DNA of 64,000 nucleotides from Candidatus Omnitrophota bacterium (GCA_044225175.1 JBGAJA010000002.1:280991-344990); one strand, 5' to 3'. Positions 48,814-64,000 are shown, numbered from the stretch's first letter. Translations and numbers: made by a program. The notes: a model not told the origin generated them from the sequence alone.

Positions 48814-49485
48814 ATGAAGCCTTATGAAACAAAGATAATCTTTATCACAGCAACAGATACAGGGGTTGGTAAGACTGTTGCAACAGCTGTGCTTGGAGTG
48901 CTCTTGCAATCTCAAGGTTTTAGGGTGGGGGTGCTTAAACCTGTTCAGTGTTCGGGGGATGATGCGGCATTTTTAAAGAGAATACTGAAAGTCGCGGATC
49001 CGCTTGCTGTCATCAATCCGATTTATGCCCCTGAAGCTTTGTCACCTCATTTGGCACTCAAACGGGCTGGACTTACATTTGATCTAAAGAAAATCAAACA
49101 ATCGTTATTAATAATGCGTCGCTGCTATGATGTTGTTTTGATTGAGGGGGCAGGGGGATTGATGGTGCCTTTAAGGCCAAATTACTATGTGGCAGACTTA
49201 ATTGGTGAGCTTAAAGCTGAGGTGGTGATTGTTTCCCGCTTAGGGTTGGGGACCATCAACCACACGTTGCTTACGATTAATGAAGCAAAGGCGCGTAAGA
49301 TTAAGATCAAAGGAGTTTTGTTTTCAGATAGTCGTCCTGGCAAAAAGACCCTTCCTGAACAAACAAACCCCCAAGAAATTGCTAAGTTATCTAAAATCAA
49401 AGTGCTTGGAACCATTCCCTATTTGAAATCATTAACTCCAAAGAACATTCTAAAAACATGCCAACACTTAAAACTCAACGTTTAA
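48814..49485 (+). CDS. bioD: Dethiobiotin synthetase
   Basis: The P-loop is ITATDTGVGKTV. GGAG lies upstream of the ATG. Confidence 0.9.
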   Translation: MKPYETKIIFITATDTGVGKTVATAVLGVLLQSQGFRVGVLKPVQCSGDDAAFLKRILKVADPLAVINPIYAPEALSPHLALKRAGLTFDLKKIKQSLLIMRRCYDVVLIEGAGGLMVPLRPNYYVADLIGELKAEVVIVSRLGLGTINHTLLTINEAKARKIKIKGVLFSDSRPGKKTLPEQTNPQEIAKLSKIKVLGTIPYLKSLTPKNILKTCQHLKLNV

Positions 49486-50765
49486 AAGCTATCGATAAGA
49501 AATACCTCTGGCATCCTTTCACCCAAATGAAGGATTGGCTGGCTGATTCCAATCAGCCACTTGTCATTGATCGGGCCCAAGGAGTTTATCTGTATGACAC
49601 AGACGGCCGAAAATACATAGATGGCGTCTCGTCTTTATGGGTCAATGTCCATGGGCATAGACATCCAGTCATTGATCGAGCCATCAAACAACAAATTGAC
49701 CGCCTAAGTCATTCCACATTACTAGGTTTGGCAAATACCCCTGCTGTTGAGCTGTCTAAGAAGTTAATCGACATTGCTCCCAAAGGTTTATCTAAGGTCT
49801 TTTATTCTGACAATGGATCAACCGCGGTTGAAATCGCCCTCAAACAAGCTTATCAATATTGGCAGAATGTAGGACAGACAAAGAAGCGAACGCTCGTGCA
49901 TTTATCTAACTCTTATCATGGAGACACATTAGGGTCAGTCAGCGTCGGGGGCATAGACTTATTTCATACGGTGTATGGGGGGCTTATATTTAAGACGATT
50001 GGACTTAAAGCACAGGGCCCGGGGGCGACCCAGGAATTTGAACATCTTCTTAAGACCAAAGCATCTTCTATGGCTGCCTTAGTTGTGGAACCTTTGGTAC
50101 AGGGAGCAGCAGGGATGATTATGTGGCCTAAAGGGGTGCTCAAGGAATTTAGAAGATTATGCACAAAGTACGATGTCTTTCTAATTGTCGATGAAGTAGC
50201 CACCGGATTTGGCCGTACAGGTAAGATGTTTGCCTGTGAGCATGAGAATGTGACCCCAGATTTTTTATGCCTAGCCAAAGGTCTAACCGGCGGCTACCTG
50301 CCGCTTGCCGCCACACTTACAACTGAGAAAGTCTACAATGGATTTCTGGTTCAAAAAGGTGTCAGACACCTTTTTTCTACGTTCTTTCATGGACATACGT
50401 ATACCGGTAATCCTTTGGCTTGTGCGGCCGCCTTGGCAAACTTGGAAATTTTTCAAAAAGAGCGTACTTTAGACAAGCTGGCCCCAAAAATTAAATTCCT
50501 AGCCCAGGAATTGAAAATGTTTTATAATCTGCCCTCTGTTTTGGATGTCCGCCAATGCGGCTTTATGGGTGGAATTGAGATCAAAGGACGCCCCGAAGAC
50601 CGCCTAGGTGCCAAGATTTGTCAGGAACTTCGAGCTAAGGGAGTCCTATTAAGACCTTTAGGCAATGTGATTGTCATTATGCCGCCTTTGGTCATCACGA
50701 TTAAAGAATTGAAATATTTATTGGAATGTGTTTATCAAACAATTAAAGATCATGGAACAAAATAA
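49458..50765 (+). CDS. bioA: Adenosylmethionine-8-amino-7-oxononanoate aminotransferase
   Basis: The protein is a class III aminotransferase with DEVATGFGRTG. It carries one 23-bp palindromic element in frame (QKGVRHLFS). Confidence 0.93.
   Translation: MPTLKTQRLKAIDKKYLWHPFTQMKDWLADSNQPLVIDRAQGVYLYDTDGRKYIDGVSSLWVNVHGHRHPVIDRAIKQQIDRLSHSTLLGLANTPAVELSKKLIDIAPKGLSKVFYSDNGSTAVEIALKQAYQYWQNVGQTKKRTLVHLSNSYHGDTLGSVSVGGIDLFHTVYGGLIFKTIGLKAQGPGATQEFEHLLKTKASSMAALVVEPLVQGAAGMIMWPKGVLKEFRRLCTKYDVFLIVDEVATGFGRTGKMFACEHENVTPDFLCLAKGLTGGYLPLAATLTTEKVYNGFLVQKGVRHLFSTFFHGHTYTGNPLACAAALANLEIFQKERTLDKLAPKIKFLAQELKMFYNLPSVLDVRQCGFMGGIEIKGRPEDRLGAKICQELRAKGVLLRPLGNVIVIMPPLVITIKELKYLLECVYQTIKDHGTK
50353..50375. 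repeat. 23-bp palindromic element, copy 1: aaaaaggtgtcagacaccttttt
   Basis: It lies inside bioA and is read as K-G-V-R-H-L-F. Confidence 0.85.
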
Positions 50766-51834
50766 AGACAAAACAGTATTTGTGGCTATGTCAGGCGGAG
50801 TTGATTCTTCCGTTGTGGCAGGATTAATTAAAGAGGCTGGCTACAAGACCGTTGGTGTTACCATGTGCTTTAATATCACCCACAGTGATGGGAAAGCTTC
50901 CTGTTGTGGGATTGAAGGCATTGCGGATGCTAAGCGTGCTGCAGAAATCATCGGTATTCCCCATTACGTCTTTAATTTTGCGGCTGATATTAATGACTTT
51001 ATCATCGATAACTTCGTCGATGAGTACTTAAAAGGCCGCACCCCGAACCCTTGTGTGCGCTGCAATCAACATCTCAAATTTGGAACTCTCTACGATAAAG
51101 TTAAATCCTTAGGTGCGGATTATATTGCAACGGGACATTATGGAATCATTGACCGCAATGACGGGCAGTATGAGCTAAAGAAATCCGTCGATGAACGTAA
51201 GGACCAGTCTTATTTTCTTTACAGTATGAAAAAAGAAACTCTGCCGTCTGTTCTTTTTCCTTTAGGAGGATTAACTAAAGGAGAGGTACGTGATTTAGCA
51301 CGTAAATTCCATCTTAATACGGCAGACAAACCCGAAAGCCAAGACATTTGTTTTGTACCAGCTGCCGGGTATAAAAAATTTATTGAAGATCGCGTGGGAA
51401 AAGAAGTGATGGTTCCAGGAGATTTTATGGATGAGAATGGAAAGGTCGTAGGTCAACACAAGGGAATTGCTAATTATACGATTGGTCAGCGGGATAAATT
51501 GGGGATTGCCTTAGGTTATCCTGTGTATGTTTATAAGATTGATTCTCAAACCAACACTGTTCATGTAGGGAATCTTGAAAAACTCTATTCCAAAGGATTA
51601 GTGGCTTCCCAGGCCAATTGGGTGAGCATGGAAATTCCCAAAGAAAGCATAGAAGTATGGGCAAGAATTCGTTATAATTCTCCTGAAGTTAAAGCCAAAC
51701 TTACAGCGACGGATGAGAACACAATTCGGCTTGATTTTTATGAGCCGCAAAAATCCGTCACACCAGGACAGTCAGTCGTTTTTTATAAAGACGATGTGGT
51801 TTTAGGTGGAGCAATTATAGAGAATTCTATTTAA
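50752..51834 (+). CDS. mnmA: tRNA 2-thiouridine(34) synthase MnmA
   Basis: The PP-loop is VAMSGGVDSS. The ATG at 50752 overlaps the last codons of bioA. The ORF-track start at 50728 is probably upstream of the true start. Confidence 0.88.
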   Translation: MEQNKDKTVFVAMSGGVDSSVVAGLIKEAGYKTVGVTMCFNITHSDGKASCCGIEGIADAKRAAEIIGIPHYVFNFAADINDFIIDNFVDEYLKGRTPNPCVRCNQHLKFGTLYDKVKSLGADYIATGHYGIIDRNDGQYELKKSVDERKDQSYFLYSMKKETLPSVLFPLGGLTKGEVRDLARKFHLNTADKPESQDICFVPAAGYKKFIEDRVGKEVMVPGDFMDENGKVVGQHKGIANYTIGQRDKLGIALGYPVYVYKIDSQTNTVHVGNLEKLYSKGLVASQANWVSMEIPKESIEVWARIRYNSPEVKAKLTATDENTIRLDFYEPQKSVTPGQSVVFYKDDVVLGGAIIENSI

Positions 51835-51849
51835 TCCGAGGATAAACCT

Positions 51850-52494
51850 ATGTTAAGAATTTTTTCCATGCTCGTTGTTTTGATGTTAGTGTCCAGCCTT
51901 GTCTTTGCTCAAGCAGTAAATCCAGCCCGCGAATATGAACGAAGAAGAAATTCTGAAGCCCCTGCCGATGGCGTTTGGTATGTCTATGATCGTGAAGGAA
52001 ATCTTTCCAAAGAAGAACATTACAAAACATATCGTTTAGATGGTGAAGTTAAAAGTTTTTATAAAAGTGGTGCTATTAAAGCTATTACTCCTTATGTGGA
52101 TGGTTTTCGTGAAGGTTTAGAGAGAACATATTTTGAAAAGGGCGGTTTAATGGGTGAGAATACTTACTCCAGAAATAATCTCAATGGAACAAGCCATCAA
52201 TATTACGACGACGGTTCTCTTCAGCAAGAATCAAATTACCTTAATGGCCAGCTCAACGGCGTTACAAAGATTTATTATAGAAATGGAAATTTAAAACAAG
52301 TTTGGAACTACAAGCTTGGTGTGATTAATGGGACAGTCCTTAATTATGGTGAGGATGGACAAATTAAATCAGAAGATATTTATTCCAAAGGCGAAATAGC
52401 TTCCCATAAAGATTATGTGAATGATGTTTCTACGCTTGTAGCTGGTGAAAAAGCTCCAGCACCAGCAAGTAAGACCCCTGCCGCTAAACCATAA
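51850..52494 (+). CDS. MORN-repeat protein with a signal peptide
   Basis: The signal peptide is MLRIFSMLVVLMLVSSLVFA. Repeated YxDGxLxxExxYxNGxxxG (MORN variant) units follow. Confidence 0.7.
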   Translation: MLRIFSMLVVLMLVSSLVFAQAVNPAREYERRRNSEAPADGVWYVYDREGNLSKEEHYKTYRLDGEVKSFYKSGAIKAITPYVDGFREGLERTYFEKGGLMGENTYSRNNLNGTSHQYYDDGSLQQESNYLNGQLNGVTKIYYRNGNLKQVWNYKLGVINGTVLNYGEDGQIKSEDIYSKGEIASHKDYVNDVSTLVAGEKAPAPASKTPAAKP

Positions 52495-52512
52495 TAGATA
52501 GAAAGCCGCGCC

Positions 52513-53781
52513 ATGATTTCTTTAAACACGGATTATCTCAAAGGCTTCGTTAATAACGAAGACATTCAAAAAACTTTACCTGAAATTAAAACTGCCCACG
52601 AGGCTTTGCATTCGGGAACCGGCAAGGGTTCTGAATTTACTGGCTGGCTGGATTTGCCCTCTCGCATCTCTGATGATTTGATCAAAGAACTTCAAACATT
52701 GGCCCAGGATGTTCAGAGAGATTGCGATTGTTTGGTTTCCATCGGTATCGGTGGTTCGTATTTAGGGATTCGTGCGACGGTGGAATTTTTAGGTGGGAGC
52801 AAACTTCCTATTTATTATGCTGGGCATAATATCAGCAGCGACTATTTGCATGGACTTTTGGAAACGCTTAAAGATAAACGACCTGCGGTTGTTGTGATTT
52901 CCAAGTCAGGTACAACGACGGAACCTGCCATCGCTTTTCGTGCCATTAAAAAATTATTAGAATCAAAATATACACCTGTAGAATTAAAGAAACGTATCAT
53001 TTGTGTGACGGATGAAAAGAAAGGTGCTTTGCGCCAAATCGTCAACAAGAACGGCTATCGTTCATTTGTGATTCCTGATGATGTGGGCGGACGGTTTTCT
53101 ATTTTGACGCCAGTTGGTTTGGTTCCTTTAGCTTTAGCTGGTGTCGATATCAAATCTTTAGTTGATGGGGCTAAAAAGGCCCAAGCTGAATACGCTCAAA
53201 TGGATTTAGAGAAGAATAATTGTTATCGCTATGCCGCCATCCGTAATGTTCTTTATCGCAAGGCCAAGAAGATTGAAGTGGTTTCCTCATTTTATCCGCA
53301 AGTGCAGTTTGTAGCCGAATGGTTTAAGCAATTGTTTGGTGAGAGTGAAGGTAAGGATGGGAAAGGGATTTTTCCTGCATCCATGATTTTCTCGACGGAC
53401 CTACACTCTATGGGGCAACAAATGCAAGACGGAGAACGTAATATCTTTGAAACATTTATTGCCATTGATAAACCAGCGCACGATGTCATTGTTCCTCATG
53501 ATGAAGATGATTTAGATGGTTTTAATTATGTGGCGGGAAAGACATTTGACTTCGTCAACAAAAAGGCTTATGAAGCAACGTCAGCGGCACACTTTGAAGG
53601 TGGTGTTCCTAATATGACACTCACCTTGTGTAAGGCAGATGCCTTTCATCTAGGTCATTTATTTTTCTTCTATGAGAAGGCGGTTGCAATCTCGGGGTAT
53701 GTCTTGGATGTAAATCCCTTTGATCAGCCGGGTGTTGAAGCCTACAAGAAAAAAATGTTTGCCCTTCTTGGCAAAAAATAA
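52513..53781 (+). CDS. pgi: Glucose-6-phosphate isomerase
   Basis: SIGIGGSYLG and GGRFSILTPVGLVPLALAG are PGI signature blocks. The length is 422 aa. Confidence 0.9.
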   Translation: MISLNTDYLKGFVNNEDIQKTLPEIKTAHEALHSGTGKGSEFTGWLDLPSRISDDLIKELQTLAQDVQRDCDCLVSIGIGGSYLGIRATVEFLGGSKLPIYYAGHNISSDYLHGLLETLKDKRPAVVVISKSGTTTEPAIAFRAIKKLLESKYTPVELKKRIICVTDEKKGALRQIVNKNGYRSFVIPDDVGGRFSILTPVGLVPLALAGVDIKSLVDGAKKAQAEYAQMDLEKNNCYRYAAIRNVLYRKAKKIEVVSSFYPQVQFVAEWFKQLFGESEGKDGKGIFPASMIFSTDLHSMGQQMQDGERNIFETFIAIDKPAHDVIVPHDEDDLDGFNYVAGKTFDFVNKKAYEATSAAHFEGGVPNMTLTLCKADAFHLGHLFFFYEKAVAISGYVLDVNPFDQPGVEAYKKKMFALLGKK

Positions 53782-53784
53782 TTT

Positions 53785-55407
53785 ATGCCTTCGGTCATTG
53801 AAGTCCGTAATCTTAAGAAAACCTTCCGATCTCGCAGGGAAATCATTGAGGCTATTAAAGACACCGATTTAGACGTGGAACAAGGAGAAGTTCTTGGGAT
53901 CCTTGGTCCCAATGGTGCAGGAAAAACCACATTTCTAAACACTCTTTCTACCCTTCTTTTGCCTGATAGTGGTTCCATTAAGATCCTGGGAATCGAATCC
54001 ACCCCTAGAAATTTCTCTTCCATCCGCAGACTCATCAATATGTCTTCGGGTTATCCTAACTATGCGTTTAGTCTAACTGTGAAAGAGAATCTGGAATTCT
54101 ACGGCAGGCTTTATGGATTAATGGGTAAGCCTCTTGAGAAAAAGATCGATGAGGTGATGGAGCTCTTTTTATTGACGACATATGCCAATCGCAGGTTTGA
54201 TGAATTATCCTCGGGGACTAAGCAGCGTTTATCTTTGGCCAAATCATTGCTGAATGATCCAAAGATTCTTTTCTTAGATGAGCCTACGATTGGATTAGAT
54301 CCAGATGTAGCCATTCAAACGAGGGAAGTCGTTAAACGCATCCTTAAAGAACGCCAAATGACTGTCCTTTTTACCAGCCACAATATGGCTGAGATTGAAG
54401 AAATGTGTGAACGTGTGGCGTTTATTCAAAAAGGGACGATTGTAAAGCTTGCGGCTATAGATGAGCTCAAGCGCCTACATAAAACCGACAATTTAGAGCA
54501 AGTCTTCATTCAACTCTCCCGAGAGACCCAAACTACCCAAATTAAACAAAAAGGTGCCCAAAAAGGTGTCAGACACCTTTTTGAAGAATCGCAACCTCAA
54601 AAAAGGTGTCAGACACCTTTTTCACTATCCCAGTGGTTCAATCGTTGCTATGCCTTTACATTTCGCAGTTGTATATTTGCCATCCGCAATCTCTTTGTCA
54701 TGACAGATGTTTTTTTCTGGCCCATGATCAGTTTGATTTCTATGGGGCTTATGTTTAAGTTTGTCCATCTTGAAAATCATGTGCTGGAATTTGTCATGAC
54801 AGGAACTTTAGCTGCAGGTGTCCTGCAAATTGTCCAGTTGGATGTAGGCTATACGATTCTTTATGAGCTGTGGTCCAAAAGTCTTAAGCACACCATGTTA
54901 ACTCCAGTTGGAACAACCGAAGGGGTGGTTGGAACTTTGCTTTCTGGTATATTTCGTGGAACTATTAGTTTTATTATTCTAGCCATTGCAGCAGTTTGGT
55001 GGTTTGGCTTTGAACTTCCGCCTTTTGGGGTAACGCTGGCATTTTTATTAGGAATTTTTGGATGCGCTTTAATTTTGGGAATTATTGTAAACATTCTCAT
55101 TTTATCTTTTGGCCAAAAAGTCGAAATCACCGCTTGGATGTTTGCCCATTTATTCCTCATTTTATGCGGAATTTATTACCCCATAGATGTTTTGCCAGAC
55201 GTTTTCCAAAAAATAGCATTAGTGGTTCCAATTACCCACTTTTTAGAGTATTTTAGGCAATATTATGGATTTAAAGCCCACACAAACAATCCATTGATAT
55301 ATGGATATGGTTTAACAATGATTTACATTTTTGTCTTTTTACACTTCCTTTCCCAATCCTACATTCGCGCCCGCCAAAAAGGCATCATCATCCGCCTTTC
55401 GGAATAA
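53785..55407 (+). CDS. ABC-2 type exporter with the ATP-binding domain fused to a 6-TM permease domain
   Basis: Walker A GPNGAGKTT is present. The ABC signature is LSSGTKQRLSLA. Walker B is ILFLDEP. Six hydrophobic helices of ABC-2 type follow. Two palindromic elements lie exactly at the domain junction. Confidence 0.85.
   Translation: MPSVIEVRNLKKTFRSRREIIEAIKDTDLDVEQGEVLGILGPNGAGKTTFLNTLSTLLLPDSGSIKILGIESTPRNFSSIRRLINMSSGYPNYAFSLTVKENLEFYGRLYGLMGKPLEKKIDEVMELFLLTTYANRRFDELSSGTKQRLSLAKSLLNDPKILFLDEPTIGLDPDVAIQTREVVKRILKERQMTVLFTSHNMAEIEEMCERVAFIQKGTIVKLAAIDELKRLHKTDNLEQVFIQLSRETQTTQIKQKGAQKGVRHLFEESQPQKRCQTPFSLSQWFNRCYAFTFRSCIFAIRNLFVMTDVFFWPMISLISMGLMFKFVHLENHVLEFVMTGTLAAGVLQIVQLDVGYTILYELWSKSLKHTMLTPVGTTEGVVGTLLSGIFRGTISFIILAIAAVWWFGFELPPFGVTLAFLLGIFGCALILGIIVNILILSFGQKVEITAWMFAHLFLILCGIYYPIDVLPDVFQKIALVVPITHFLEYFRQYYGFKAHTNNPLIYGYGLTMIYIFVFLHFLSQSYIRARQKGIIIRLSE
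54560..54582. repeat. 23-bp palindromic element, copy 2: aaaaaggtgtcagacaccttttt
   Basis: It lies in the ABC gene linker and is read as K-G-V-R-H-L-F. Confidence 0.85.
54600..54622. repeat. 23-bp palindromic element, copy 3: aaaaaggtgtcagacaccttttt
   Basis: It lies 40 nt after copy 2 and is read in a different frame as K-R-C-Q-T-P-F. Confidence 0.85.
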
Positions 55408-55563
55408 TCCAATAAAAAATAGGGTGAACTCACATTTTTAGAAGAAACAGGAAGTTGCCCCTATTTTTGAGAAAGCGTTATCTCAAAGAGGGGTTCTAAG
55501 CCTTGTTTTCGTCAACTTTAGGTGTAATACTTTAGGTATATTAATAAGCAGTATATAAAGTAT

Positions 55564-58500
55564 ATGAGAACCCCCATATCTATCCTAACTTTGATGTGTT
55601 TCTTTTTCACAAGCATATGTGGCCCTATGCCTGTGAATGCCCAGGAAATTCATTTAACAAAACCTGGGGTAATGGTCCATTTAAGCACTCCTGTAACCCC
55701 ACCTCTACTCAAAGGAATCAAGGTCCATCCAGACAACCCATTTAGGTTCGATTTTATCCTGGATACAGGGTCACGTTCCGTCGATGATGCACATAAATTG
55801 AAGGAAGAGTCCAACCGACTAATCAAGTACTTTTTAGCCTCTTTAACCATTCCCGAAGCGGACCTTTGGGTGAACCTAAGCCCCTATGAAAAAAACCGCA
55901 TTGTCCCCGAAAGCTTTGGCCAAACCGAGATGGGACGTGACCTATTAGCCCAGGACTACATGCTAAAGCAGATCACAGCCAGCCTTATGTACCCAGAAGA
56001 TGAGATAGGAAAGAGATTCTGGAGAAGAATCTATGAAGAATCAGCCAAAAGGTATGGAACAACCAACATTCCAGTCAACACATTCAACAAGGTATGGATA
56101 GTCCCCGAGAAAGCCGTAGTCTATGAGAATGCAAAGGCCGGAACAGCCTATGTAGTGGAATCCAGGCTGAAAGTGATGTTAGAAGAAGACTACGTAGCCT
56201 CCAAAAAGGTGTCAGACACCTTTTTGAAGGGGCAGAGTGATAAAAAGGTGTCTGACACCATTTTGCACAGTCAGATCATACGGGAGGTTGTTATTCCTGA
56301 ATTGACCAAAGAAATCAATGAAGGATCCAATTTTGTGCAGCTTAGGCAGGTTTATAGTTCCTTGATTTTAGCTACTTGGTACAAGAAGAAGATCAAGGAT
56401 TCACTATTGGCGCAGGTGTATGCGGATAAGAATAAGGTCATGGGTCTTGGGTATATGGGAGGCGGATCGGAACAGATTTACCAACGATACCTCCAAGCTT
56501 TTAAAAAAGGCGTTTATAACTACATCAAAGAAGAACCCGATCCCATAACCCAACAATCTGTCCCTCGAAAATATTTCTCTGGTGGAATGGCATTTGATCA
56601 TGCCATGAATGTAACGATTAAATATACGGGTGAAATTGCAGGTCCAATTAATTCTGCCATGCAAGTGACTGTTGATATGTCAATAGCAAATCATGTAGAG
56701 TTAGAGCATTCTACCGACCAAGCTATGAGCGCAGTCCTCCATCAAAGCGATTTGCCCAGGCTATATTGGGGAAATATTGTTCAGCGTTTAATCTTTTCTT
56801 TAGTGGATCGCTTTAGAACCGGCGAGAACATTCAAAGAGAGGATCTTGTTACATCCGCACAGGCGCTCACACAACAATTTACCCCTGAAGCTACTGCTTC
56901 TGAAAAGCAATTATTCGAAGATGTTATGAAAGGGGCAGATCTAAAAGGGTTAGGTAAGACAAGGTTAAATGTCGCTACCATTATGGCTGCTTTTATTGCT
57001 CAACAAGCTATTGGGGCAGATACAGATTCTCAAGAATTCACTAATGTTTATCTGCCAAGAGATATGGGCTTAGGATACACCATTGAAAAAACGTTAGCAT
57101 CATTAAAAGATGAGACAAGAGAACCTGGCATATATTATCTTAGTCGAGATAGTTTGGAAGAAGGAGTTTATTCAAGAGTCAGCAACATTATTGAGAATGT
57201 AAAAGCCAAACAAAAATTAATTAATGCCTTAGCAGAGACTCCTAAAGAGCGAAGACGGATATTTATTCAATACGTAGGTCGAGAGATCATGGAAGATGAT
57301 CTTTGCAGACCAGCCGCAAAAAGGATTCTTAAAGAATTAAAAGAGTTGGGCATTATTAAGAACAACGCCAAATTAAGATTCGTGGATACAGGATATAAAA
57401 CTTTTCCTATCATGCTTCAAGCCATCATCGCTGCAGCGAGTGAATTAGATGCTTTTCATATTCAAACGGAAGGCCTCGTCATTAACAGTTCCATTGAAGC
57501 TTATCTTGATCAAATTGATCCTAAGAAGTGGGACGCGCCATCTCAAAGACTTGCTTCATTCAATCCTTTTTCAAAATTAGCAAGACCGGGAATTTTGGGA
57601 TTTATGGAGGATGACAATGCCTTACCTCACCCATTTCGGTTTAGCAAAACTCATAAAGGAATGGTTGCAACAGACGCCAAAACACAAAGAGAAGCGTACG
57701 CAACTCAGATTATGTTTGGTTTTGGTGCGATTGAATATCAGAGGTTAATTGATGAATTAGCTAAAAATTTGCTCGCTCAAGGGGTTTCAAAATTAGATTC
57801 TAAAGAGATATCTCAAGAATTAATTGCCCAGTTGGTAGGCCTCACTAAAGCAGACCAGAGTGATGATTATGTGCGAGAGCTAGATATAAAAACCGACCTA
57901 TATTTTACTGAGTTCAAAACAGTCTTTGCAGGTCGTATGAATTCAATGCAAAACAACATTCATGACGTCTATGGTTATAAGGATTTTAAAATAAAAGAAA
58001 TGAACCCGGATATTTTATCAACTATCCTGAAAATATCAGAAGAGAAATACAAGATAGATGTCAGTTTTCACAGATCGATTAAAGAATTTTATCCAAGAAA
58101 AGAACACATGAATTTTCTAAGTGCTAATTTTAAAATAAAAAACGAATTAATTTTCGATACAATCTCACAATTTAAAAAGGCTCCACATGAATCAAAACTA
58201 AAATCTTTGCTTTTTTATTTTAAAAAATTTGGAAAATTAATTAATACTCCAAGAAATCTTTTCAAAGACTCACAAGAAAAAGAAGATACTGACCCTGCCA
58301 TGAAATCCTCTAAAACCATAAAAAATGGAATCATCGGCGCAATTGCAGCAGCTATTACAAGTAGTTTGAGCGGTTGTTATACATCTGAGGCGGGGAAGAA
58401 TTATCAAAATACCTTGGAACGTAGAAAAGAAGTCATTCCCGCCAAAGAGGGAGACCACACTCCCTTATCAAGTGCAATTTGGGATTCATCTATTGAAAGA

Positions 58501-60237
58501 ACAGATGATGGACACAGTTCAGAAAAAATAAGAACTGCGCAAAGACCTATCGAAGAAAAAATATCTGACAAAGCGCAAATACCACCAGACTACGCCGCCC
58601 AAGGTATAAATAACCGAAGAATTTTAACAAATTTCTTTAGACAATTTCCCCAAGGAGCAAAGGGTTTGGATGAGGAAGTGGCATCCAGATTTGATCACCT
58701 TCCTCCAGAAGCCCTCCAGGCAGGATTGGAAGTACTAAAAGAACTTCTGGGAGAGGAAGGGCTTAGCGAACTTTTCTCAACAAAACAAGGTTTTTATACT
58801 GGCGGAATTTCGTTTATGTATCTATTTATAAAAGAACCGACAGAACTTAAAGAGTCATTGCTCACGGTGAAAGCAGGATTGAAACAATATAGATACAAAG
58901 GAATAAATCTAGTCAGTGAGCTTATCAACATCTTGAACCTATCTAGTAAATCGAGACTAAACGAAAAGATTCAGAAGCTCGAGATGATCTGGCCTGGCGT
59001 TGCTAACGAAAGTGTGGTTAAAGATCCATTAATATTTTTTAATGAATTAAAAGATATAAACTTGGATGATTTAGATAAGGTTGAAGCGCTCGAATTGAAG
59101 TATCCAGGAATCAAAGCAATTATGAGAAAGTTTATAAAGGACCATACAGATTTCTTTCCTGAAGCTCTCAATAGATTGGTTAATGATGTTTTAAAAGACC
59201 ATGATTCGCAGTTGACAGAAGCGTTCTTAAGCCTGGACGTTGATAAAATCAAAATGATTGTAAAGGCCAAGATGCCTGAAGCCCATCAGAGAGTCATGGA
59301 TTTTGAAAGAAAATATTCCAAATGGAAAGATATGGAAGATTCAAGCCTCAAACATTCTTTGATGGTACAAGCCATTATGGATGCATTTGTCGTCACGCTG
59401 CATAATTTCTTTGAAGCAGATATTCCAGCCATGCCTGCTGAGATCATGGCAGAGACATATCTCTTAATTTTGGGATATTCAAAATTGGGAAATTTGACTA
59501 CTTCAAAGTTTGAAATTAATCCGAATGACTTGGGCGGAGGTTTCCAATGGAAAAGTACCATGACACATGAGATATGGCACCATTTCATTAGTCCTTATTT
59601 AAAGGCAGGAGGTAGAGCTTCCTTTAAAGAAGCAGCCATGAGTGAATTAGGTGCAGATTTAAGCTGGTTGGCTTTATACCAAATCATGAATGAGCAGGCG
59701 CCAATTGTGGAAGCAATCAAGTCTTTCTTGAAATATGACGAGTCATTGAAGTTCATTGAAGAACGTTGGCCATTTTTGAATTATCATGGCGTAGGACGGG
59801 GAGCTCTGACTGCGCTTATCAAAGCCATTGAGAAACAAAAAGGTAAAGTTGATTATGTGGCATTATTGAAATCATACATGAATTACATTCAAGCCAATGG
59901 TCACAATTCCCGCGTAGGAGTGTTCATTCAACATGCATCAATACAATTAGGTCTTCACGAAGACCCCTATTTAAGAAGAATTGCTAAGCAAGCCGATCAG
60001 ATGGACCGTGCTATGAAGGCTGAAACTGTGGGTGGTATTGATTTGACCGTGGGCAATTTGAACTTGCAAACACAAAGCTCTAATGGTGAAATATCATTCA
60101 AAATTGATCCAGCTATGTTAGAACAATTGCAAAATGCTTCTGGTTTTTCACCTGTGATCATTCAAATGCAGCCGCTGACTGATGTAAAGGGATTTTTAGG
60201 AATGAAAGACAGAGAAAAGGAAACGATCAGCGTATGA
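55564..60237 (+). CDS. Very large secreted protein P1 (1557 aa) of unknown function, with a signal peptide, a conserved N-terminal domain shared with P2, and an HEIWH motif near the C-terminus
   Basis: The signal-peptide-like N-terminus is MRTPISILTLMCFFFTSICGPMPVNA. The N-terminal roughly 330 aa are homologous to the next gene. TMTHEIWHH is an HExxH motif. Two palindromic elements are embedded in the gene. Confidence 0.75.
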   Translation: MRTPISILTLMCFFFTSICGPMPVNAQEIHLTKPGVMVHLSTPVTPPLLKGIKVHPDNPFRFDFILDTGSRSVDDAHKLKEESNRLIKYFLASLTIPEADLWVNLSPYEKNRIVPESFGQTEMGRDLLAQDYMLKQITASLMYPEDEIGKRFWRRIYEESAKRYGTTNIPVNTFNKVWIVPEKAVVYENAKAGTAYVVESRLKVMLEEDYVASKKVSDTFLKGQSDKKVSDTILHSQIIREVVIPELTKEINEGSNFVQLRQVYSSLILATWYKKKIKDSLLAQVYADKNKVMGLGYMGGGSEQIYQRYLQAFKKGVYNYIKEEPDPITQQSVPRKYFSGGMAFDHAMNVTIKYTGEIAGPINSAMQVTVDMSIANHVELEHSTDQAMSAVLHQSDLPRLYWGNIVQRLIFSLVDRFRTGENIQREDLVTSAQALTQQFTPEATASEKQLFEDVMKGADLKGLGKTRLNVATIMAAFIAQQAIGADTDSQEFTNVYLPRDMGLGYTIEKTLASLKDETREPGIYYLSRDSLEEGVYSRVSNIIENVKAKQKLINALAETPKERRRIFIQYVGREIMEDDLCRPAAKRILKELKELGIIKNNAKLRFVDTGYKTFPIMLQAIIAAASELDAFHIQTEGLVINSSIEAYLDQIDPKKWDAPSQRLASFNPFSKLARPGILGFMEDDNALPHPFRFSKTHKGMVATDAKTQREAYATQIMFGFGAIEYQRLIDELAKNLLAQGVSKLDSKEISQELIAQLVGLTKADQSDDYVRELDIKTDLYFTEFKTVFAGRMNSMQNNIHDVYGYKDFKIKEMNPDILSTILKISEEKYKIDVSFHRSIKEFYPRKEHMNFLSANFKIKNELIFDTISQFKKAPHESKLKSLLFYFKKFGKLINTPRNLFKDSQEKEDTDPAMKSSKTIKNGIIGAIAAAITSSLSGCYTSEAGKNYQNTLERRKEVIPAKEGDHTPLSSAIWDSSIERTDDGHSSEKIRTAQRPIEEKISDKAQIPPDYAAQGINNRRILTNFFRQFPQGAKGLDEEVASRFDHLPPEALQAGLEVLKELLGEEGLSELFSTKQGFYTGGISFMYLFIKEPTELKESLLTVKAGLKQYRYKGINLVSELINILNLSSKSRLNEKIQKLEMIWPGVANESVVKDPLIFFNELKDINLDDLDKVEALELKYPGIKAIMRKFIKDHTDFFPEALNRLVNDVLKDHDSQLTEAFLSLDVDKIKMIVKAKMPEAHQRVMDFERKYSKWKDMEDSSLKHSLMVQAIMDAFVVTLHNFFEADIPAMPAEIMAETYLLILGYSKLGNLTTSKFEINPNDLGGGFQWKSTMTHEIWHHFISPYLKAGGRASFKEAAMSELGADLSWLALYQIMNEQAPIVEAIKSFLKYDESLKFIEERWPFLNYHGVGRGALTALIKAIEKQKGKVDYVALLKSYMNYIQANGHNSRVGVFIQHASIQLGLHEDPYLRRIAKQADQMDRAMKAETVGGIDLTVGNLNLQTQSSNGEISFKIDPAMLEQLQNASGFSPVIIQMQPLTDVKGFLGMKDREKETISV
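56203..56225. repeat. 23-bp palindromic element, copy 4: aaaaaggtgtcagacaccttttt
   Basis: It lies inside P1 and is read as K-K-V-S-D-T-F-L. Confidence 0.85.
56242..56264. repeat. 23-bp palindromic element, copy 5 (degenerate): aaaaaggtgtctgacaccatttt
   Basis: It lies 39 nt after copy 4, is read as K-K-V-S-D-T-I-L, and has the central T variant. Confidence 0.75.
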
Positions 60238-63200
60238 GGATTTTAAGAATACTGATCCTTATAGCATTCTTTGTTAATTGCCTGGGGCCTATGCCTGTGT
60301 CTGCCGACGTAGGGGCAGGGCTTGCCCCTGCCCAAAAAGGGCAATCGCAAGGATTGCCCCTACAGTTGCCTAAACCTGGTGTGATGGTCCATCTCAGCTC
60401 AGAATTTACCCCAGCGCATTTGAGCGGCCTTGTGATCCACCCAGAAGATCCCTTAAAGTTCGACTTTTTGATTCATCGTGGCGATGGTTCTGTGGATAAA
60501 AATGCAGAATACACCAAATTAATCAAATACTTCCTAGCTTCACTAACCGTCCCCGATGAAGACCAATGGGTAAATTTATCTCCCTATGAGAAGGATCGTA
60601 TCATTAATGAGAACTTTGGTAAAACAGAGATGGGCCGAGATCTGTTGGCCCAGGACTATCTATTAAAACAGATCACCGCTTCCATGATTTATCCGCAGGA
60701 TAAGCTAGGTGAGAAGTTCTGGAATAAGATATATCAAAGAGCCTGGGAAGAATACCACACTACAAATATTCCAGTGAATACGTTTAACAAAGTCTGGATT
60801 ATCCCCGATGAAGCAGCTGTGTATGAGTCAGGAAATACAGTCTATGTGTTAAAGAACCATTTGAAGGTGATGTTGGAAGAAGATTATTTATCGTTAAATA
60901 AACACAAAAAGGTGTCTGACACCTTTTTGACAAGCCAGATCATCCGAGAAATTATCCTGCCGGAACTAGAACGTGAAGTCAATGGGGGAGAGAATTTTGC
61001 TCCTTTACGTCAAATTTACAGCGCTATGATCTTGGCCACATGGTACAAGCGAAGCCTCAAAGAATCTTTATTAACTAAAGCCTATGCCGATAAATCCAAG
61101 ATCCAAGGCGTCAATCTGGAAGACCCAAAAGCCAATCAAGAAATCTATCAGCAGTACTTGAAGGCCTTCAAGAAAGGTGTGTTTAATTACATTAAAGAAG
61201 ATATAGACAAGTACTCCAAACAAGTGATTCCAAGGAAATACTTCTCAGGGGGTATGACTAAGGGTTATGCAGATGGAAGTATGATCAAAAGATATGATTC
61301 ACACCATGCCATGCCTGCTACATATTATCAAGATGCGGCACTATTATCTCGGCTTGATTTGGCCCAAGTGGCTTTGAATACCTCTTCTCCTGTGGGTCTC
61401 AAAAAAGACCAAGCTATGAAAGCAGCAAAAGAAGAAGAGAATTTTCTGGATAAAACAGAGGCTTTTTCGTGGGTCATTTTTAATCGCTTCACAACGGCTG
61501 GTTTCTTATTGATAGCCATGAGCCTTGGTGGATTTTTCGGCTCGCCAGCCCTCGTTTTATCTGCTGCCGGCCCTTTTTTGGGTTTAGGTATAAGTAGCGT
61601 GGTATTGATCTATAAAAAGGACTCTCAAGGTAAAAAAGACCCTTGGGGGGTTTATAAAAAAGGCAAACGTCTAAGACGTTTAAGTGTTTTTACAGGGATG
61701 GTCGGTTTATCTATCGGAGGATATTTAGCTTATAAGCCGGTCTTAGACCATGGCCAACAGTTCAATCAATTCATCAAAGTTTACAATGACCTTGCAACAG
61801 ATGAAAGAAATGGCCAGCCACATACAGGCGTTGCCCTAGATCAATTTAAAGTTTTGATCAAAAATGCCTATCAGGTCAAGATGGAACATTTTTATGACAA
61901 TTGGTGGGCAGAGACTATTCTTCGTATGGCTAGCGAGCATCCTTCCAAAAAAGTCCGTGATATTTTTGTCGAGCATATGGCCCAAACCAATTTGACGCTT
62001 TCGGGCAGACATGACCTTCAAAAAGCTTTCAGAGAAAATGTTGGTGTTAAAGAAGTCGAACGCTGGTTGATAGACCATAAAGACTATCCTATAGAGCGAT
62101 GGGAAATTTTTTCAGCTGTAGCCTATCTTTATACCGACATGATGGAAGAGCATCCTAAGCAAGCAGCTACTTTTCTTTGGGAGCTGGCTAAATACAGGGG
62201 AGACCCATTTACTCTTAAAACACTGATGAAACTTTTTCCCATCAATTATTTTGATGTCCTTCAAGAATGGTTAAATACTTTCAATGAAGAAGAGCGCTGG
62301 GACATCATATCTCTCATCATGCGTGAAGAAATGGAAAATGAAGAATTCATTGTCAAAGACACAGTATGGTCAACTCACGTGGGCAATTGGACATTTTATG
62401 AATTATTTGATGCTCTTTCACCACAAGAGAGACATCAACAATTAGACAGGCTACTGAGAGAAGGGGTTTATTTCACCCGGGACGATTTTAAACAAGGAAA
62501 CATCGACAGTTGGCAAGAGGTGACCCAAAGCTTGATTGACCATCAGTGGGCTAAAGCAGTGAATGCCGATGAGATCATAGTGACAGGCACAATGGGTCAT
62601 GAGCGAAAAGAAATGGCCGAAACTTTAGGAGAAAAGACCTATCGGAAATTGCAGAAGATTTGGAGAAAAGGATTTGGTCATTTTGGAGATGACAACTTTT
62701 ATGCCATGGTCCATAAACTAGCGATTTTTGTCTATCTTAAAGAAAAGCTTCCCCATTTGTGGGACCCGCGTGATCCCGAGGTTCTGGATTTCTGGCAAAA
62801 AGTCATGACCAATATTTCCTATGAATCGCCGCAACCGCAAGGGTCCCAAGTGCAAGATCCTCACAAGGTTGTCATCTATTTTGGCCAAGACATTCACCAA
62901 GCAATCGATGAGATAGCCACACGAATTCAGGCCAGGTACCCCGACATTACAAGCGCTAAACACGCAGCTACTGAAGGAGATGTAGATTTGGGACCTATTT
63001 CTAAGAATGATAATGCCATGTCAACGCAAGGTACAACCCAATCTCTTAGCTCCTTGAGAAGCTTAGAGGATTATTTAAAGTCCCAAGAATTTCAAGACCA
63101 CAAAGAGGTTACGAAAGCCATGGTAATTTTAAAGACATATCCCCAGACTCTCCTAGAGATTGGCGGGGGAAGCTTTGAGCGGGCAGACCAAATTGCACGG

Positions 63201-64000
63201 CATGACAGAAGAATGGGAGTGGTTTCTACAGATCAGTTTGAAGAAGATGGATACTATAGTTTTAATGAGCAGCGATGGAAAAATAGATTATTAAGGACCC
63301 AAAAAAATCCACCAGAAAATTTGGCCCTTTTAAAGGCAGATGTGAGAATGATTACAGGAAAACTGCCAAATCATTCCCTAGACTATATCCTCGTCGAAAA
63401 CCCAGATGATCCCGCATGGGTTTATATCAGAGAAAACGTTGAGATTGTTAAAAGGAAGTTGAAACCGGGCGGTGTATTAATTATGAAACCTCACTATGGT
63501 GATCACATCAAAGATTTGACTAGACTTGGATTTACACCCTGGAGAGAAGATTTAACTCCTGGAATCGATATGAACTATCGTGTTCCTGAATACGACAATA
63601 ATTTCCCCCCTATGATTTTAACAACTTCAATGACTAATAACGATAAGGCAATGGCAGTACAGAAGACAAGCCAAGCCCTTAGCACATGGAAAGGCTTAGA
63701 AGAGTATTTGGAAAGAGGCAATGTTCAAAAGGAAAACGAAGTAAGAAAAGCAATTGATCTTCTTAGTACAGGACGAAAGACCATATGGAAAATTGGTATC
63801 AAAGAACCTAGGTGGACCCAAGACATTGTGGCGAAAAGAAATCAAAATTTTAGAATGGTGGTGAGTGATGATTTCAGTCCTGAAAGAACATATAGCCAAG
63901 GAGAGTCCTATGAAAAGTGGCAGAAGGGCACTCTTACTATTCAGCAAGCTCAACCCAATGAATTAGCCATTGTTAACGCGAAAGTCCAAGAGATGCTCCC
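60234..64000 (+). CDS. Very large secreted protein P2, a paralog of P1 (3-prime partial, more than 1250 aa), with tandem methyltransferase-like modules in its C-terminal part
   Basis: The ATG overlaps the P1 stop (ATGA). The signal-peptide-like N-terminus is MRILRILILIAFFVNCLGPMPVSA. The N-terminal domain aligns with P1 (LPKPGVMVHLS...NIPVNTFNKVWIIP...). The frame stays open to the window end. LLEIGGGSFERADQIA, DYILVENPDDP and LKPGGVLIM resemble SAM-MTase motifs, and a second degenerate module follows. Confidence 0.7.
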   Translation, partial: MRILRILILIAFFVNCLGPMPVSADVGAGLAPAQKGQSQGLPLQLPKPGVMVHLSSEFTPAHLSGLVIHPEDPLKFDFLIHRGDGSVDKNAEYTKLIKYFLASLTVPDEDQWVNLSPYEKDRIINENFGKTEMGRDLLAQDYLLKQITASMIYPQDKLGEKFWNKIYQRAWEEYHTTNIPVNTFNKVWIIPDEAAVYESGNTVYVLKNHLKVMLEEDYLSLNKHKKVSDTFLTSQIIREIILPELEREVNGGENFAPLRQIYSAMILATWYKRSLKESLLTKAYADKSKIQGVNLEDPKANQEIYQQYLKAFKKGVFNYIKEDIDKYSKQVIPRKYFSGGMTKGYADGSMIKRYDSHHAMPATYYQDAALLSRLDLAQVALNTSSPVGLKKDQAMKAAKEEENFLDKTEAFSWVIFNRFTTAGFLLIAMSLGGFFGSPALVLSAAGPFLGLGISSVVLIYKKDSQGKKDPWGVYKKGKRLRRLSVFTGMVGLSIGGYLAYKPVLDHGQQFNQFIKVYNDLATDERNGQPHTGVALDQFKVLIKNAYQVKMEHFYDNWWAETILRMASEHPSKKVRDIFVEHMAQTNLTLSGRHDLQKAFRENVGVKEVERWLIDHKDYPIERWEIFSAVAYLYTDMMEEHPKQAATFLWELAKYRGDPFTLKTLMKLFPINYFDVLQEWLNTFNEEERWDIISLIMREEMENEEFIVKDTVWSTHVGNWTFYELFDALSPQERHQQLDRLLREGVYFTRDDFKQGNIDSWQEVTQSLIDHQWAKAVNADEIIVTGTMGHERKEMAETLGEKTYRKLQKIWRKGFGHFGDDNFYAMVHKLAIFVYLKEKLPHLWDPRDPEVLDFWQKVMTNISYESPQPQGSQVQDPHKVVIYFGQDIHQAIDEIATRIQARYPDITSAKHAATEGDVDLGPISKNDNAMSTQGTTQSLSSLRSLEDYLKSQEFQDHKEVTKAMVILKTYPQTLLEIGGGSFERADQIARHDRRMGVVSTDQFEEDGYYSFNEQRWKNRLLRTQKNPPENLALLKADVRMITGKLPNHSLDYILVENPDDPAWVYIRENVEIVKRKLKPGGVLIMKPHYGDHIKDLTRLGFTPWREDLTPGIDMNYRVPEYDNNFPPMILTTSMTNNDKAMAVQKTSQALSTWKGLEEYLERGNVQKENEVRKAIDLLSTGRKTIWKIGIKEPRWTQDIVAKRNQNFRMVVSDDFSPERTYSQGESYEKWQKGTLTIQQAQPNELAIVNAKVQEML
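60906..60928. repeat. 23-bp palindromic element, copy 6: aaaaaggtgtctgacaccttttt
   Basis: It lies inside P2 at the position homologous to copy 4 in P1 and is read as K-K-V-S-D-T-F-L. Confidence 0.85.

What the first reader, a model, noticed from the sequence alone, without database searches (positions are those of the whole stretch)
50353..60928. A 23-bp near-perfect palindrome inserted inside coding sequences six times, read in all three frames and stop-free in all six frames
AAAAAGGTGTC(A/T)GACACCTTTTT occurs in bioA (50353), twice in the ABC gene (54560, 54600), twice in P1 (56203, 56242) and once in P2 (60906). It is translated as KGVRHLF in bioA and the first ABC copy, as KRCQTPF in the second ABC copy, and as KKVSDTFL in P1 and P2. 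It is therefore a DNA-level element and not a conserved peptide. Neither strand contains a stop codon in any frame, which would let it persist inside genes. This is reminiscent of Rickettsia palindromic elements, which insert in frame into genes, but is far shorter. As RNA it would form a 10-bp hairpin followed by U5 in either orientation.
Basis: seen in the sequence. Interest (0 to 1): 0.8.

Follow-up and report, generated by a model that had tools for sequence, protein, structure and literature searches.

The report
In-frame REP-type palindromes inside genes
A 23-base DNA palindrome sits in frame inside four genes of an Omnitrophota bacterium; it is a miniature mobile repeat of the kind spread by a REP-associated tyrosine transposase, a known class of element, here in a newly recognised family found across many phyla.

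Summary
Six copies of AAAAAGGTGTC(A/T)GACACCTTTTT lie at the stated coordinates. All six are inside long ORFs and are read in three different frames. The element is a DNA-level, lineage-specific feature: 119/119 BioA orthologues, 120/120 P1/P2 homologues and a fully syntenic relative all lack it. It always sits in a variable loop or an inter-domain linker.

The same core (AAAGGTGTC-N-GACACCTTT) is dispersed in genomes of at least five phyla. In 5 of 118 genome loci and 3 of 120 metagenome loci, all fetched only because they contain the palindrome, copies bracket a Y1 HUH transposase gene. The only curated-family match for these transposases is "REP-associated tyrosine transposase", and the only solved-structure match is E. 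coli TnpA-REP. Close doublets are preferentially inverted, as in REPINs and BIMEs.

The element is therefore a REP/TIR-type miniature palindrome of a RAYT/TIRYT clade, not a new kind of element. In-frame intragenic REPs, including the short Rickettsia RPEs, are already published (Di Nocera 2013). "Stop-free in six frames" is not special, since 16% of random palindromes share it.

New here are the family itself, its conservation across phyla and its presence in Omnitrophota. No transposase gene lies in the window.

The parts
50353..50375 (.). Copy 1 (centre A), inside bioA, translated QKGVRHLFS. It replaces the conserved loop FDY(K/Q)xQK.
54548..54556 (.). Partial left half-site AAAAAGGTG, 3 nt upstream of copy 2 (a half-site duplicate).
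   Evidence: The same pattern recurs in other genomes.
54560..54582 (.). Copy 2 (centre A), in the ATPase-permease linker of the ABC fusion, translated QKGVRHLF.
54600..54622 (.). Copy 3 (centre A), same linker, frame shifted by one, translated KRCQTPF. With copy 2 it forms a doublet with a 17-nt spacer.
56203..56225 (.). Copy 4 (centre A), in the hypervariable loop of P1, translated KKVSDTFL.
56242..56264 (.). Copy 5 (centre T, 1 mismatch), same P1 loop, translated KKVSDTIL. With copy 4 it forms an inverted (A,T) doublet with a 16-nt spacer.
60906..60928 (.). Copy 6 (centre T), in the homologous loop of the paralogue P2. Here the element makes up the whole loop.
49458..50765 (+). Host gene bioA (class-III aminotransferase, 435 aa).
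53785..55407 (+). Host gene: ABC ATPase + ABC-2 permease fusion (540 aa).
55564..60237 (+). Host gene P1 (1557 aa, Omnitrophota-specific secreted protein family with no significant Pfam domain).
60234..64000 (+). Host gene P2 (paralogue of P1, runs off the window end).

Best explanation
The 23-mer is a miniature, non-autonomous palindromic repeat of the REP/TIR type. It belongs to a family whose partner is a RAYT/TIRYT-like Y1 (HUH) tyrosine transposase. By analogy with E. coli TnpA-REP and IS200/IS605 TnpA, the enzyme is inferred to recognise the hairpin that the palindrome forms in single-stranded DNA, and to cut and rejoin it, seeding copies around the genome. In this gene-dense Omnitrophota genome most landing sites are coding. 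The copies that survive keep the reading frame, bring no stop codon, and sit in a structurally permissive loop or linker, so the hairpin is simply translated. Shown here: the copies are DNA-level and lineage-specific; they occupy variable loops and linkers; in other genomes the same palindrome brackets RAYT-like genes; and doublets are preferentially inverted. Inferred: the catalytic mechanism, and that such a transposase is or recently was active in this genome. No such gene lies in the 64-kb window.
For: (1) DNA-level and recent. The copies are read in three frames. They are absent from 119/119 BioA orthologues and 120/120 P1/P2 homologues. A syntenic relative (BioA 80%, ABC 73% identical) has no copy and no 8-nt half-site in 16.9 kb. 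Five of the six copies are still perfect. (2) Dispersed family. The core AAAGGTGTCNGACACCTTT occurs in more than 118 genome stretches (my estimate of the chance expectation is about 9 for 596 Gb), several per genome, in Planctomycetota, Actinomycetota, Bacteroidota, Bacillota, Pseudomonadota and others. The outer stems are lineage-specific but still complementary. The exact 23-mer occurs in at least 120 metagenome stretches. (3) Transposase link. Among loci chosen only for the palindrome, a Y1_Tnp gene is bracketed by copies in L018, L081, L023, L106 and L073 and in L166, L170 and L186. Roughly 0.2 would be expected per 118 loci for a single-copy gene. In the reverse direction, four RAYT homologues chosen by protein similarity alone carry AAAGGTGTC(A/C)GGTAC...TTTT upstream, and three of them carry its inverse at the stop codon, giving 21-32 nt terminal inverted repeats. 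(4) Family identity. Pfam Y1_Tnp scores above threshold. The only NCBIfam hit is REP-associated tyrosine transposase at 55-76 bits. The only PDB hit is 4ER8, TnpA-REP. The HUH and Y...NP motifs are present. (5) Dimer polarity. Doublets are (A,T) 31 times against (T,A) 2 times, matching the A...gene...T arrangement of the transposase-flanking copies. (6) Permissive sites. The hosts are the ABC inter-domain linker and a P1-family loop that varies by 0 to about 70 residues and holds other palindromic repeats in frame in other Omnitrophota. (7) Precedent. Intragenic in-frame REPs and TIRYT repeat families are published (PMC3733652).
Against: No RAYT gene is present in the 64-kb window, and the rest of the source genome could not be read. 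No Omnitrophota genome appeared among the 118 listed genome hits, although that list was truncated. The element lacks the GTAG or CGTC tag of classical REPs. The net length gains (+9 nt, and +24 nt for two copies) are smaller than the element, and no target-site signature is visible, so a simple insertion is not demonstrated. Doublet spacers are not conserved, unlike classical REPINs. Transposition by this enzyme clade has never been shown experimentally. By motif and length the clade most resembles the published subclass 2.1, which was reported to have no REPs (PMC6006769).
Confidence: 0.78

Rival explanations
1. The palindromes are primarily functional RNA or DNA signals, such as bidirectional intrinsic terminators, attenuators or mRNA-stabilising hairpins. 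On this view they are kept by selection inside these genes, and the transposase association is incidental to their role here.
For: Each copy is a hairpin followed by U5 on both strands, and some are picked up by the terminator scan. In lower-GC genomes most copies sit at ORF ends or in short intergenic intervals, as published for REPs (PMC3733652). Five of six copies are perfect.
Against: Terminators in the middle of bioA or of a transporter gene would truncate the transcripts. The closest relative manages without any copy at the same sites. The positions follow protein-structural permissiveness (loops and linkers), not operon structure. This rival also does not explain how the copies arose, so it complements the best explanation more than it competes with it.
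Confidence: 0.1
2. The palindromes are generated or spread by a process other than a RAYT. Candidates are template-switch or hairpin-mediated repair that perfects quasi-palindromes, gene conversion between copies, or mobilisation by an unrelated transposase.
For: Each copy partly replaces native sequence rather than adding its full length. No target-site duplication is seen. In bioA the ancestral CAAAAR...ACGTTYTTT already offers an A-run and a T-run. Half-site duplicates are common (47 against 17 controls). No RAYT lies in the window.
Against: An identical 23-mer at four unrelated sites cannot arise independently by local template switching. The palindrome brackets Y1 transposase genes in eight independent palindrome-selected loci, and related inverted repeats flank the four protein-selected homologues. 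The length of 23 bp and the absence of a duplication do not fit a DDE-type MITE.
Confidence: 0.08
3. It is a protein-level motif: a conserved peptide that happens to be encoded by similar DNA.
For: P1 and P2 carry the same peptide KKVSDTF at homologous positions.
Against: The copies give three different peptides from three frames. None of 119 BioA orthologues or 120 P1/P2 homologues has the peptide. The DNA is identical while the flanking codons have diverged.
Confidence: 0.01
4. It is an assembly or sequencing artefact, such as an adapter or chimeric junction.
For: It is a short perfect palindrome found in many metagenome-assembled genomes.
Against: A separate Logan assembly encodes the identical bioA and ABC proteins. 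The reading frame is kept in 6/6 copies. The palindrome is present in isolate genomes, including a complete Novipirellula chromosome. It occurs in assemblies from different assemblers and studies and has a specific gene association.
Confidence: 0.01

Closest known systems
REP / REPIN elements with their RAYT (TnpA-REP) transposase, arranged as REPtrons (Nunvar 2010, PMC2817692; Bertels & Rainey 2011, PMC3116915; Messing 2012, PMC3479197)
   Same: A 20-40 bp palindromic repeat dispersed in the genome. Copies bracket a single Y1 HUH transposase gene whose nearest curated family and nearest solved structure are TnpA-REP. Inverted doublets are preferred. Hairpin formation is predicted.
   Different: There is no GTAG tag. 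The hairpin core is conserved across phyla, whereas REPs are usually species-specific. Doublet spacers are not conserved. In this window all copies are intragenic. The transposases score just below the NCBIfam equivalog cutoff.
TIRYT / TIRtron elements and their TIR repeat families (Di Nocera et al. 2013, PMC3733652); subclass 2.1 of TnpA-Y1 (Quentin et al. 2018, PMC6006769)
   Same: The RAYT-like gene is flanked by 21-32 nt terminal inverted repeats that overlap the gene ends. The repeat is partly or wholly self-complementary and occurs as singles and dimers elsewhere in the genome. The protein is about 225-240 aa with a C-terminal extension. Its HUH, FQ/YQ and Y..NP motifs resemble subclass 2.1.
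   Different: The published TIR motif is GGGGWSAS, and here it is GGTGTCAG (7 of 8 positions). Subclass 2.1 was reported to lack REP-like sequences nearby, whereas here dispersed palindromic copies are abundant. Subclass membership was judged from motifs and length only, not with the authors' profiles.
Rickettsia palindromic elements (RPEs) and intragenic REPs of Opitutus terrae (Di Nocera et al. 2013, PMC3733652)
   Same: Palindromic repeats inserted in frame in protein-coding genes, as singles or dimers, sometimes twice in one gene, and translated as extra loop residues.
   Different: RPE-1 is 100-150 bp. The short RPE-4 and RPE-6 are CGTC-tagged and have no dedicated transposase. This element has a different sequence family and host phylum. 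Here the element partly replaces native residues.
Bidirectional intrinsic terminators
   Same: An A-tract, a G+C-containing stem and a T-tract, symmetric on both strands.
   Different: Identical sequence at unrelated sites, location inside ORFs, and association with a transposase gene.

Membership tests
REP/RAYT (REPtron) | Short (about 20-40 bp) imperfect or perfect palindrome repeated in the genome | tested here: met
   A 23-nt palindrome with 6 copies in the window and multiple copies per genome elsewhere.
REP/RAYT (REPtron) | Copies flank a RAYT (Y1 HUH transposase) gene | tested here: met
   Met in other genomes: L018, L081, L023, L106, L073, L166, L170 and L186. Not met in the window itself, where no RAYT homologue was found. 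The rest of the source genome could not be examined.
REP/RAYT (REPtron) | Conserved GTAG (or CGTC) tetranucleotide at one end | tested here: not met
   The flanks of the six window copies and of the 134 genome copies show no conserved GTAG or CGTC.
REP/RAYT (REPtron) | Inverted dimers (REPIN/BIME organisation) | tested here: met
   Doublets are (A,T) 31 times against (T,A) 2 times. However, 17 doublets are same-orientation and the spacers are not conserved. In the window one of the two doublets is (A,T).
REP/RAYT (REPtron) | Predominantly extragenic location | tested here: not met
   In the window 6/6 copies are intragenic. In lower-GC genomes elsewhere the copies are mostly intergenic or at gene ends.
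REP/RAYT (REPtron) | Transposase belongs to the TnpA-REP family | tested here: inconclusive
   The only NCBIfam hit is NF047646 at 55-76 bits, below the cutoff of 80. The only PDB hit is 4ER8 at E = 4e-7. Pfam Y1_Tnp scores above its threshold.
TIRYT/TIRtron | Y1 transposase gene flanked by terminal inverted repeats | tested here: met
   TIRs of 21-32 nt with at most 2 mismatches in L240, L242, L243, L244, L023 and L073.
TIRYT/TIRtron | GGGGWSAS motif in the TIR | tested here: not met
   The motif here is GGTGTCAG or GGTGTCCG, matching 7 of 8 positions (motif from PMC3733652).
Rickettsia palindromic elements | In-frame insertion in ORFs | tested here: met
Rickettsia palindromic elements | Length of 100-150 bp (RPE-1), or a CGTC tag (RPE-4 and RPE-6) | tested here: not met
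   The element is 23 nt and has no CGTC tag.
DDE-type MITE | Length of 70-300 bp with TIRs and a target-site duplication | tested here: not met
   The element is 23 nt, and no duplication of flanking sequence is seen at bioA or ABC when compared with the empty sites.
Intrinsic terminator | Stable stem-loop followed by a U-tract, and terminates transcription | not testable with these tools
   The structure and U5 are present. Termination would need RNA 3'-end data.
IS200/IS605 | Multicopy autonomous IS with a TnpA of about 150 aa and distinct subterminal hairpins, often with tnpB | tested here: not met
   The proteins are 222-371 aa and match TnpA-REP rather than IS200 models or structures. No tnpB lies next to them. 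Many homologues sit on contigs of about 1 kb, which hints at multiple copies per genome.

The most novel reading that the evidence does not exclude
The GGTGTC-N-GACACC hairpin and its Y1 transposase form one ancient or widely transferred REP-RAYT lineage. Its DNA recognition element has stayed fixed across at least five phyla, while the transposases diverged to about 30% identity and the host G+C content ranges from 38% to 77%. This lineage would correspond to the large 'subclass 2.1 / TIRYT' group that the literature describes as lacking REPs. In Omnitrophota it, together with other palindromic repeats, would actively rewrite protein loops by replacement rather than simple insertion.
Probability: 0.25. 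Interest if true: 0.6.

Novelty: new member of a known kind. Interest (0 to 1): 0.4.

Why it matters
This gives the Omnitrophota annotation a concrete explanation for odd, non-homologous peptide segments such as KGVRHLF, KRCQTPF and KKVSDTF in otherwise conserved proteins. More generally, it flags a REP-type repeat whose hairpin core is shared across phyla and across a wide range of host G+C content. That is unusual for REPs, which are normally species-specific. It also suggests that a large group of RAYT-like transposases thought to lack cognate repeats may in fact have one. If confirmed, the family would be a convenient system for studying how Y1 transposases recognise their hairpins, and how miniature palindromes remodel protein loops in gene-dense genomes.

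Tried and rejected
- Rfam scan of 50000-61500 at E <= 1 gave only two chance miRNA-model hits.
- A full-text literature search for the 13-nt core in its four centre variants found no paper.
- A CRISPR-like mini-array was considered because of the 39-40 nt spacing. I rejected it on sight because there are only two units per site, the spacers are 16-17 nt, and the copies lie in frame in ORFs.
- A transcription-factor operator (for example a biotin regulator near bioA) was considered. I rejected it because the identical sequence occurs in unrelated genes and phyla and brackets transposase genes.
- Viral carriage was tested: 0 hits for the core in viral contigs.
- Attempts to read the source genome beyond the window failed. 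The bioA look-up returned only a 7.3-kb Logan contig, the cluster look-up gave no name or accession, and P1 is not on record. Whether this genome has a RAYT therefore remains open.
- The top 120 homologues of the Planctomycetota RAYT carried no Omnitrophota names.
- The 'stop-free in all six frames' argument was tested and found weak, at 16% under the null.
- One RAYT-like hit, L110, lies 2.9 kb from its palindrome and was not counted as bracketed.


Full report
**1. The observation**

A pattern search for AAAAAGGTGTCWGACACCTTTTT, allowing up to three mismatches, finds exactly six sites: 50353, 54560, 54600, 56203, 56242 (one mismatch) and 60906. None is expected in shuffled sequence.

All six lie inside long ORFs on the + strand:
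- bioA, 49458-50765. Pfam Aminotran_3, E = 1e-105.
- A fused ABC ATPase + ABC-2 permease, 53785-55407.
- P1, 55564-60237, a large protein with no significant Pfam domain.
- P2, from 60234 to beyond the window end. It is a paralogue of P1 with no Pfam hit.

The copies are read in three different frames. The peptides are QKGVRHLF (bioA and ABC copy 1), KRCQTPF (ABC copy 2) and KKVSDT(F/I)L (P1 twice, P2 once).

As RNA, a single copy forms a 10-11 bp hairpin with a 3-nt loop followed by U5. Each of the two doublets can fold into one long hairpin of about -33 kcal/mol. These palindromes are the strongest inverted repeats in the window.

Sixteen percent of random palindromes of this size and composition are stop-free in all six frames. 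The window is also about 91.5% coding, so landing in genes is the default outcome.

**2. It is a lineage-specific DNA event in permissive protein segments**

The nearest BioA proteins come from Candidatus Omnitrophica/Omnitrophota.

*bioA.* In an alignment of 119 orthologues (68-83% identity), every one has GF(x)FDYKxQ-KTFFHGH. Only the window protein has GFLVQKGVRHLFSTFFHGH.

*Syntenic relative.* A locus with the same gene order (bioD-bioA-mnmA-MORN-pgi-ABC fusion-start of a P1-like gene) was recovered from a relative, GCA_964583975.1. Its BioA is 80% and its ABC protein 73% identical to the window's. It contains no copy and not a single 8-nt half-site in 16.9 kb.

*Nucleotide boundaries in bioA.* The conserved flanks CAA AAR and ACG TTY TTT CAY surround a 21-nt gain (GGTGTCAGACACCTTTTTTCT). 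A 12-nt loss lies just upstream, giving a net change of +9 nt. No flanking duplication is present.

*ABC protein.* Both copies lie in the unconserved linker between the ATPase and the permease. In some relatives these two domains are separate genes. The window's linker is only 24 nt longer than the orthologue's, although it holds two 23-nt copies.

*P1/P2.* The site is a loop that varies from 0 to about 70 residues among 120 homologues, none of which has KVSDTF. In P2 the loop consists of the element alone.

However, the events are replacements or insertion-plus-deletion, not clean insertions.

**3. The same palindrome is a dispersed repeat in many phyla**

The core AAAGGTGTCNGACACCTTT was scanned against one genome per GTDB species.

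The hits come from Pirellulaceae and other Planctomycetota, Solirubrobacteraceae, Thermoleophilia and Iamiaceae, Prevotellaceae and Bacteroidales, Syntrophomonadaceae, several Pseudomonadota and others. Many genomes have several loci. Isolate genomes are included (Stieleria, Novipirellula), among them a complete Novipirellula chromosome.

Outside the core, the palindrome continues with lineage-specific but still complementary sequence. Examples are TTACAC...GTGTAA in Prevotellaceae, GCGCAAG...CTTGCGC in Solirubrobacteraceae and CAATAAGTTAA...TTAACTTATTG in Syntrophomonadaceae.

The exact 23-mer occurs in at least 120 metagenome stretches. Most of these are 65-72% G+C, so the AT-rich element stands out sharply against the host composition. 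No viral contig carries the core.

**4. The partner gene**

In L018 (Bacteroidales), copies flank a 371-codon ORF (360 aa from its first ATG) and also sit in frame within it. The ORF is a Y1_Tnp protein (Pfam, E = 1e-11). Its only NCBIfam match is REP-associated tyrosine transposase.

A tblastn search with its N-terminal 200 residues against all palindrome-selected loci found homologues bracketed on both sides by the palindrome in L081 (Syntrophomonadaceae), L023 (Pirellulaceae), L106 (Phycisphaerae, doublets on both sides) and L073 (a Planctomycetota single-cell genome). The metagenome set added L166, L170 and L186. Roughly 0.2 such loci would be expected by chance for a single-copy gene.

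The reciprocal test used four homologues chosen only by protein similarity. All four have AAAGGTGTC(A/C)GGTAC...TTTT in their upstream region: 55-70 nt upstream in three, and overlapping the annotated start in L243. In several loci this is followed by TTGAC. Three of the four (L240, L243, L244) have the inverse copy overlapping the end of the gene. Together these form 21-32 nt terminal inverted repeats.

The proteins carry the HUH and Y..NP motifs. They hit only NF047646 in NCBIfam (55-76 bits, cutoff 80). The L073 protein hits only E. coli TnpA-REP (4ER8) among solved structures. The family is very large, with at least 7,988 clusters at E <= 1e-10. Its members are often on contigs of about 1 kb, as expected for repeats that break assemblies.

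**5. Internal organisation**

The centre base gives each copy a polarity. Among 54 close doublets, (A,T) occurs 31 times and (T,A) twice, with 17 in the same orientation and 4 involving G or C centres. The preferred order matches the A...gene...T arrangement seen around the transposase genes.

The dispersed perfect palindrome equals the outer 9 nt of the left terminal repeat joined to the outer 9 nt of the right one. Equivalently, it is a perfected form of the imperfect terminal hairpin, with GGTACC changed to GACACC by two substitutions.

Same-orientation half-site duplicates next to full copies are enriched, 47 against 17 controls in 285 copies. The window has one, at 54548-54556. Some loci look like one copy nested in the loop of another (L019).

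**6. Comparison with what is known**

REPs and their RAYT/TnpA-REP transposases, REPtrons and REPINs are well described.

Di Nocera et al. 2013 (PMC3733652) report the following:
- REPs inside genes, most of them in Opitutus terrae (PVC group) and Rickettsia conorii, as singles and dimers encoding 20-30 residues.
- 'TIRtrons': RAYT-like 'TIRYT' genes flanked by inverted repeats. Some of these repeats are self-complementary and form dispersed families arranged as dimers, with a shared GGGGWSAS motif.
- Rhodopirellula baltica has many such transposases and repeats.

Quentin et al. 2018 (PMC6006769) place most TIRYTs in subclass 2.1 and state that no REP-like sequences were found near subclass 2.1 genes. 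They also note REP insertions inside the tnpA-REP genes of subclass 2.4.

The present element fits this landscape as a REP/TIR-type repeat of a RAYT/TIRYT clade. It fails two classical criteria, the GTAG/CGTC tag and (in this window) extragenic location. Its motif matches GGGGWSAS at 7 of 8 positions. I judged subclass membership from motifs and length only.

**7. Mechanism and its limits**

The most likely mechanism has three steps:
1. The transposase recognises the hairpin in single-stranded DNA and disseminates copies.
2. Selection removes copies that break frames or hit structured parts of proteins.
3. Copies in loops and linkers persist and are translated.

The near-perfect state of the copies, together with their absence from a relative at about 75-80% protein identity, points to recent activity.

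Not shown: any transposase gene in this genome, the catalytic steps, and why each copy displaces neighbouring codons. An additional RNA-level role (termination or stabilisation) cannot be excluded.

**8. Verdict**

The finding is real and correctly seen as a DNA-level palindromic element, but it belongs to a known class. New are the specific family, the conservation of its core across phyla and across host G+C contents, and its occurrence in Omnitrophota. In Omnitrophota the same P1-family loop also hosts other palindromic repeats in frame: a GTAG-REP dimer in L250 and a GGGGACA...TGTCCCC hairpin in L249. I rate it as a new member of a known kind, of moderate interest.

Noticed in passing
window 60309-60363: A different repeat lies in frame near the N-terminus of P2. 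It is a GTAG-tagged inverted dimer (GTAGGGGCAGGGCTTGCCCCTGCCC AAAAA GGGCAATCGCAAGGATTGCCCCTAC), translated as VGAGLAPAQKGQSQGLPLQ. It occurs only once in the window. As DNA it folds into two hairpins (-20 kcal/mol, z = -3.7).
   Followed up: partly
L250 (GCA_015233165.1) and L249, in the loop homologous to window 56190-56270: In other Omnitrophota, the same hypervariable loop of the P1 protein family carries other palindromic repeats in frame. L250 has a classical GTAG-REP dimer (GTAGGGGTGGGTTCCAAACCCACCC...GGGCAGGTTTAGAACCTGCCCCTAC). L249 has a GGGGACATGGC...GCCGTGTCCCC hairpin. Recurrent peptides such as RPGDMALAVSPSRLPSE...KAPQGNN, SERSEESQ and VILSAAKDL appear in several homologues. The loop seems to be a general sink for repeat insertions.
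   Followed up: partly
L018 1129-2244 (Bacteroidales MAG): This RAYT-like gene carries two in-frame copies of its own palindrome inside its C-terminal extension (at about 1409 and 1733, translated QWCQTLLC and QRCQTPLC). This resembles the 'REP inserted in tnpA-REP' feature published for subclass 2.4.
   Followed up: partly
Doublets in 65-72% G+C metagenome contigs, e.g. L137, L140, L156, L162, L165, L197, L228: The 25-70 nt spacers between the two palindromes of a doublet are AT-rich and differ in sequence from locus to locus, even within one sample. This differs from classical REPINs, where the spacer is part of the conserved unit. The origin of these spacers is unexplained.
   Followed up: no
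window 60927-60955; also the 5' flanks of RAYT genes in L073, L186, L240 and L023: The right end of the palindrome runs into TTGAC(A). In P2 this gives the best sigma-70-like match in the region (TTGACA-17-AATTAT, 10 of 12). Upstream of the RAYT genes the repeat is likewise followed by TTGAC. The element may carry an outward-facing -35-like box.
   Followed up: no
L019 about 3245-3300; L028, L055, L117, L170, L193; window 54548-54556: Partial half-sites (AAAGGTG... upstream or ...CACCTTT downstream) lie next to full copies, sometimes as a full copy nested between the two halves of another. This may be a footprint of insertion into the loop of an existing hairpin. They are enriched 47 against 17 relative to opposite-half controls.
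   Followed up: partly
L247 16097-16870: The contig of the syntenic relative ends inside the same hypervariable loop of its P1-like gene (...LKVMLEADYLAEAKNGVRAGSPSPNKGEETSPVRS). A repeat there may have broken the assembly.
   Followed up: no
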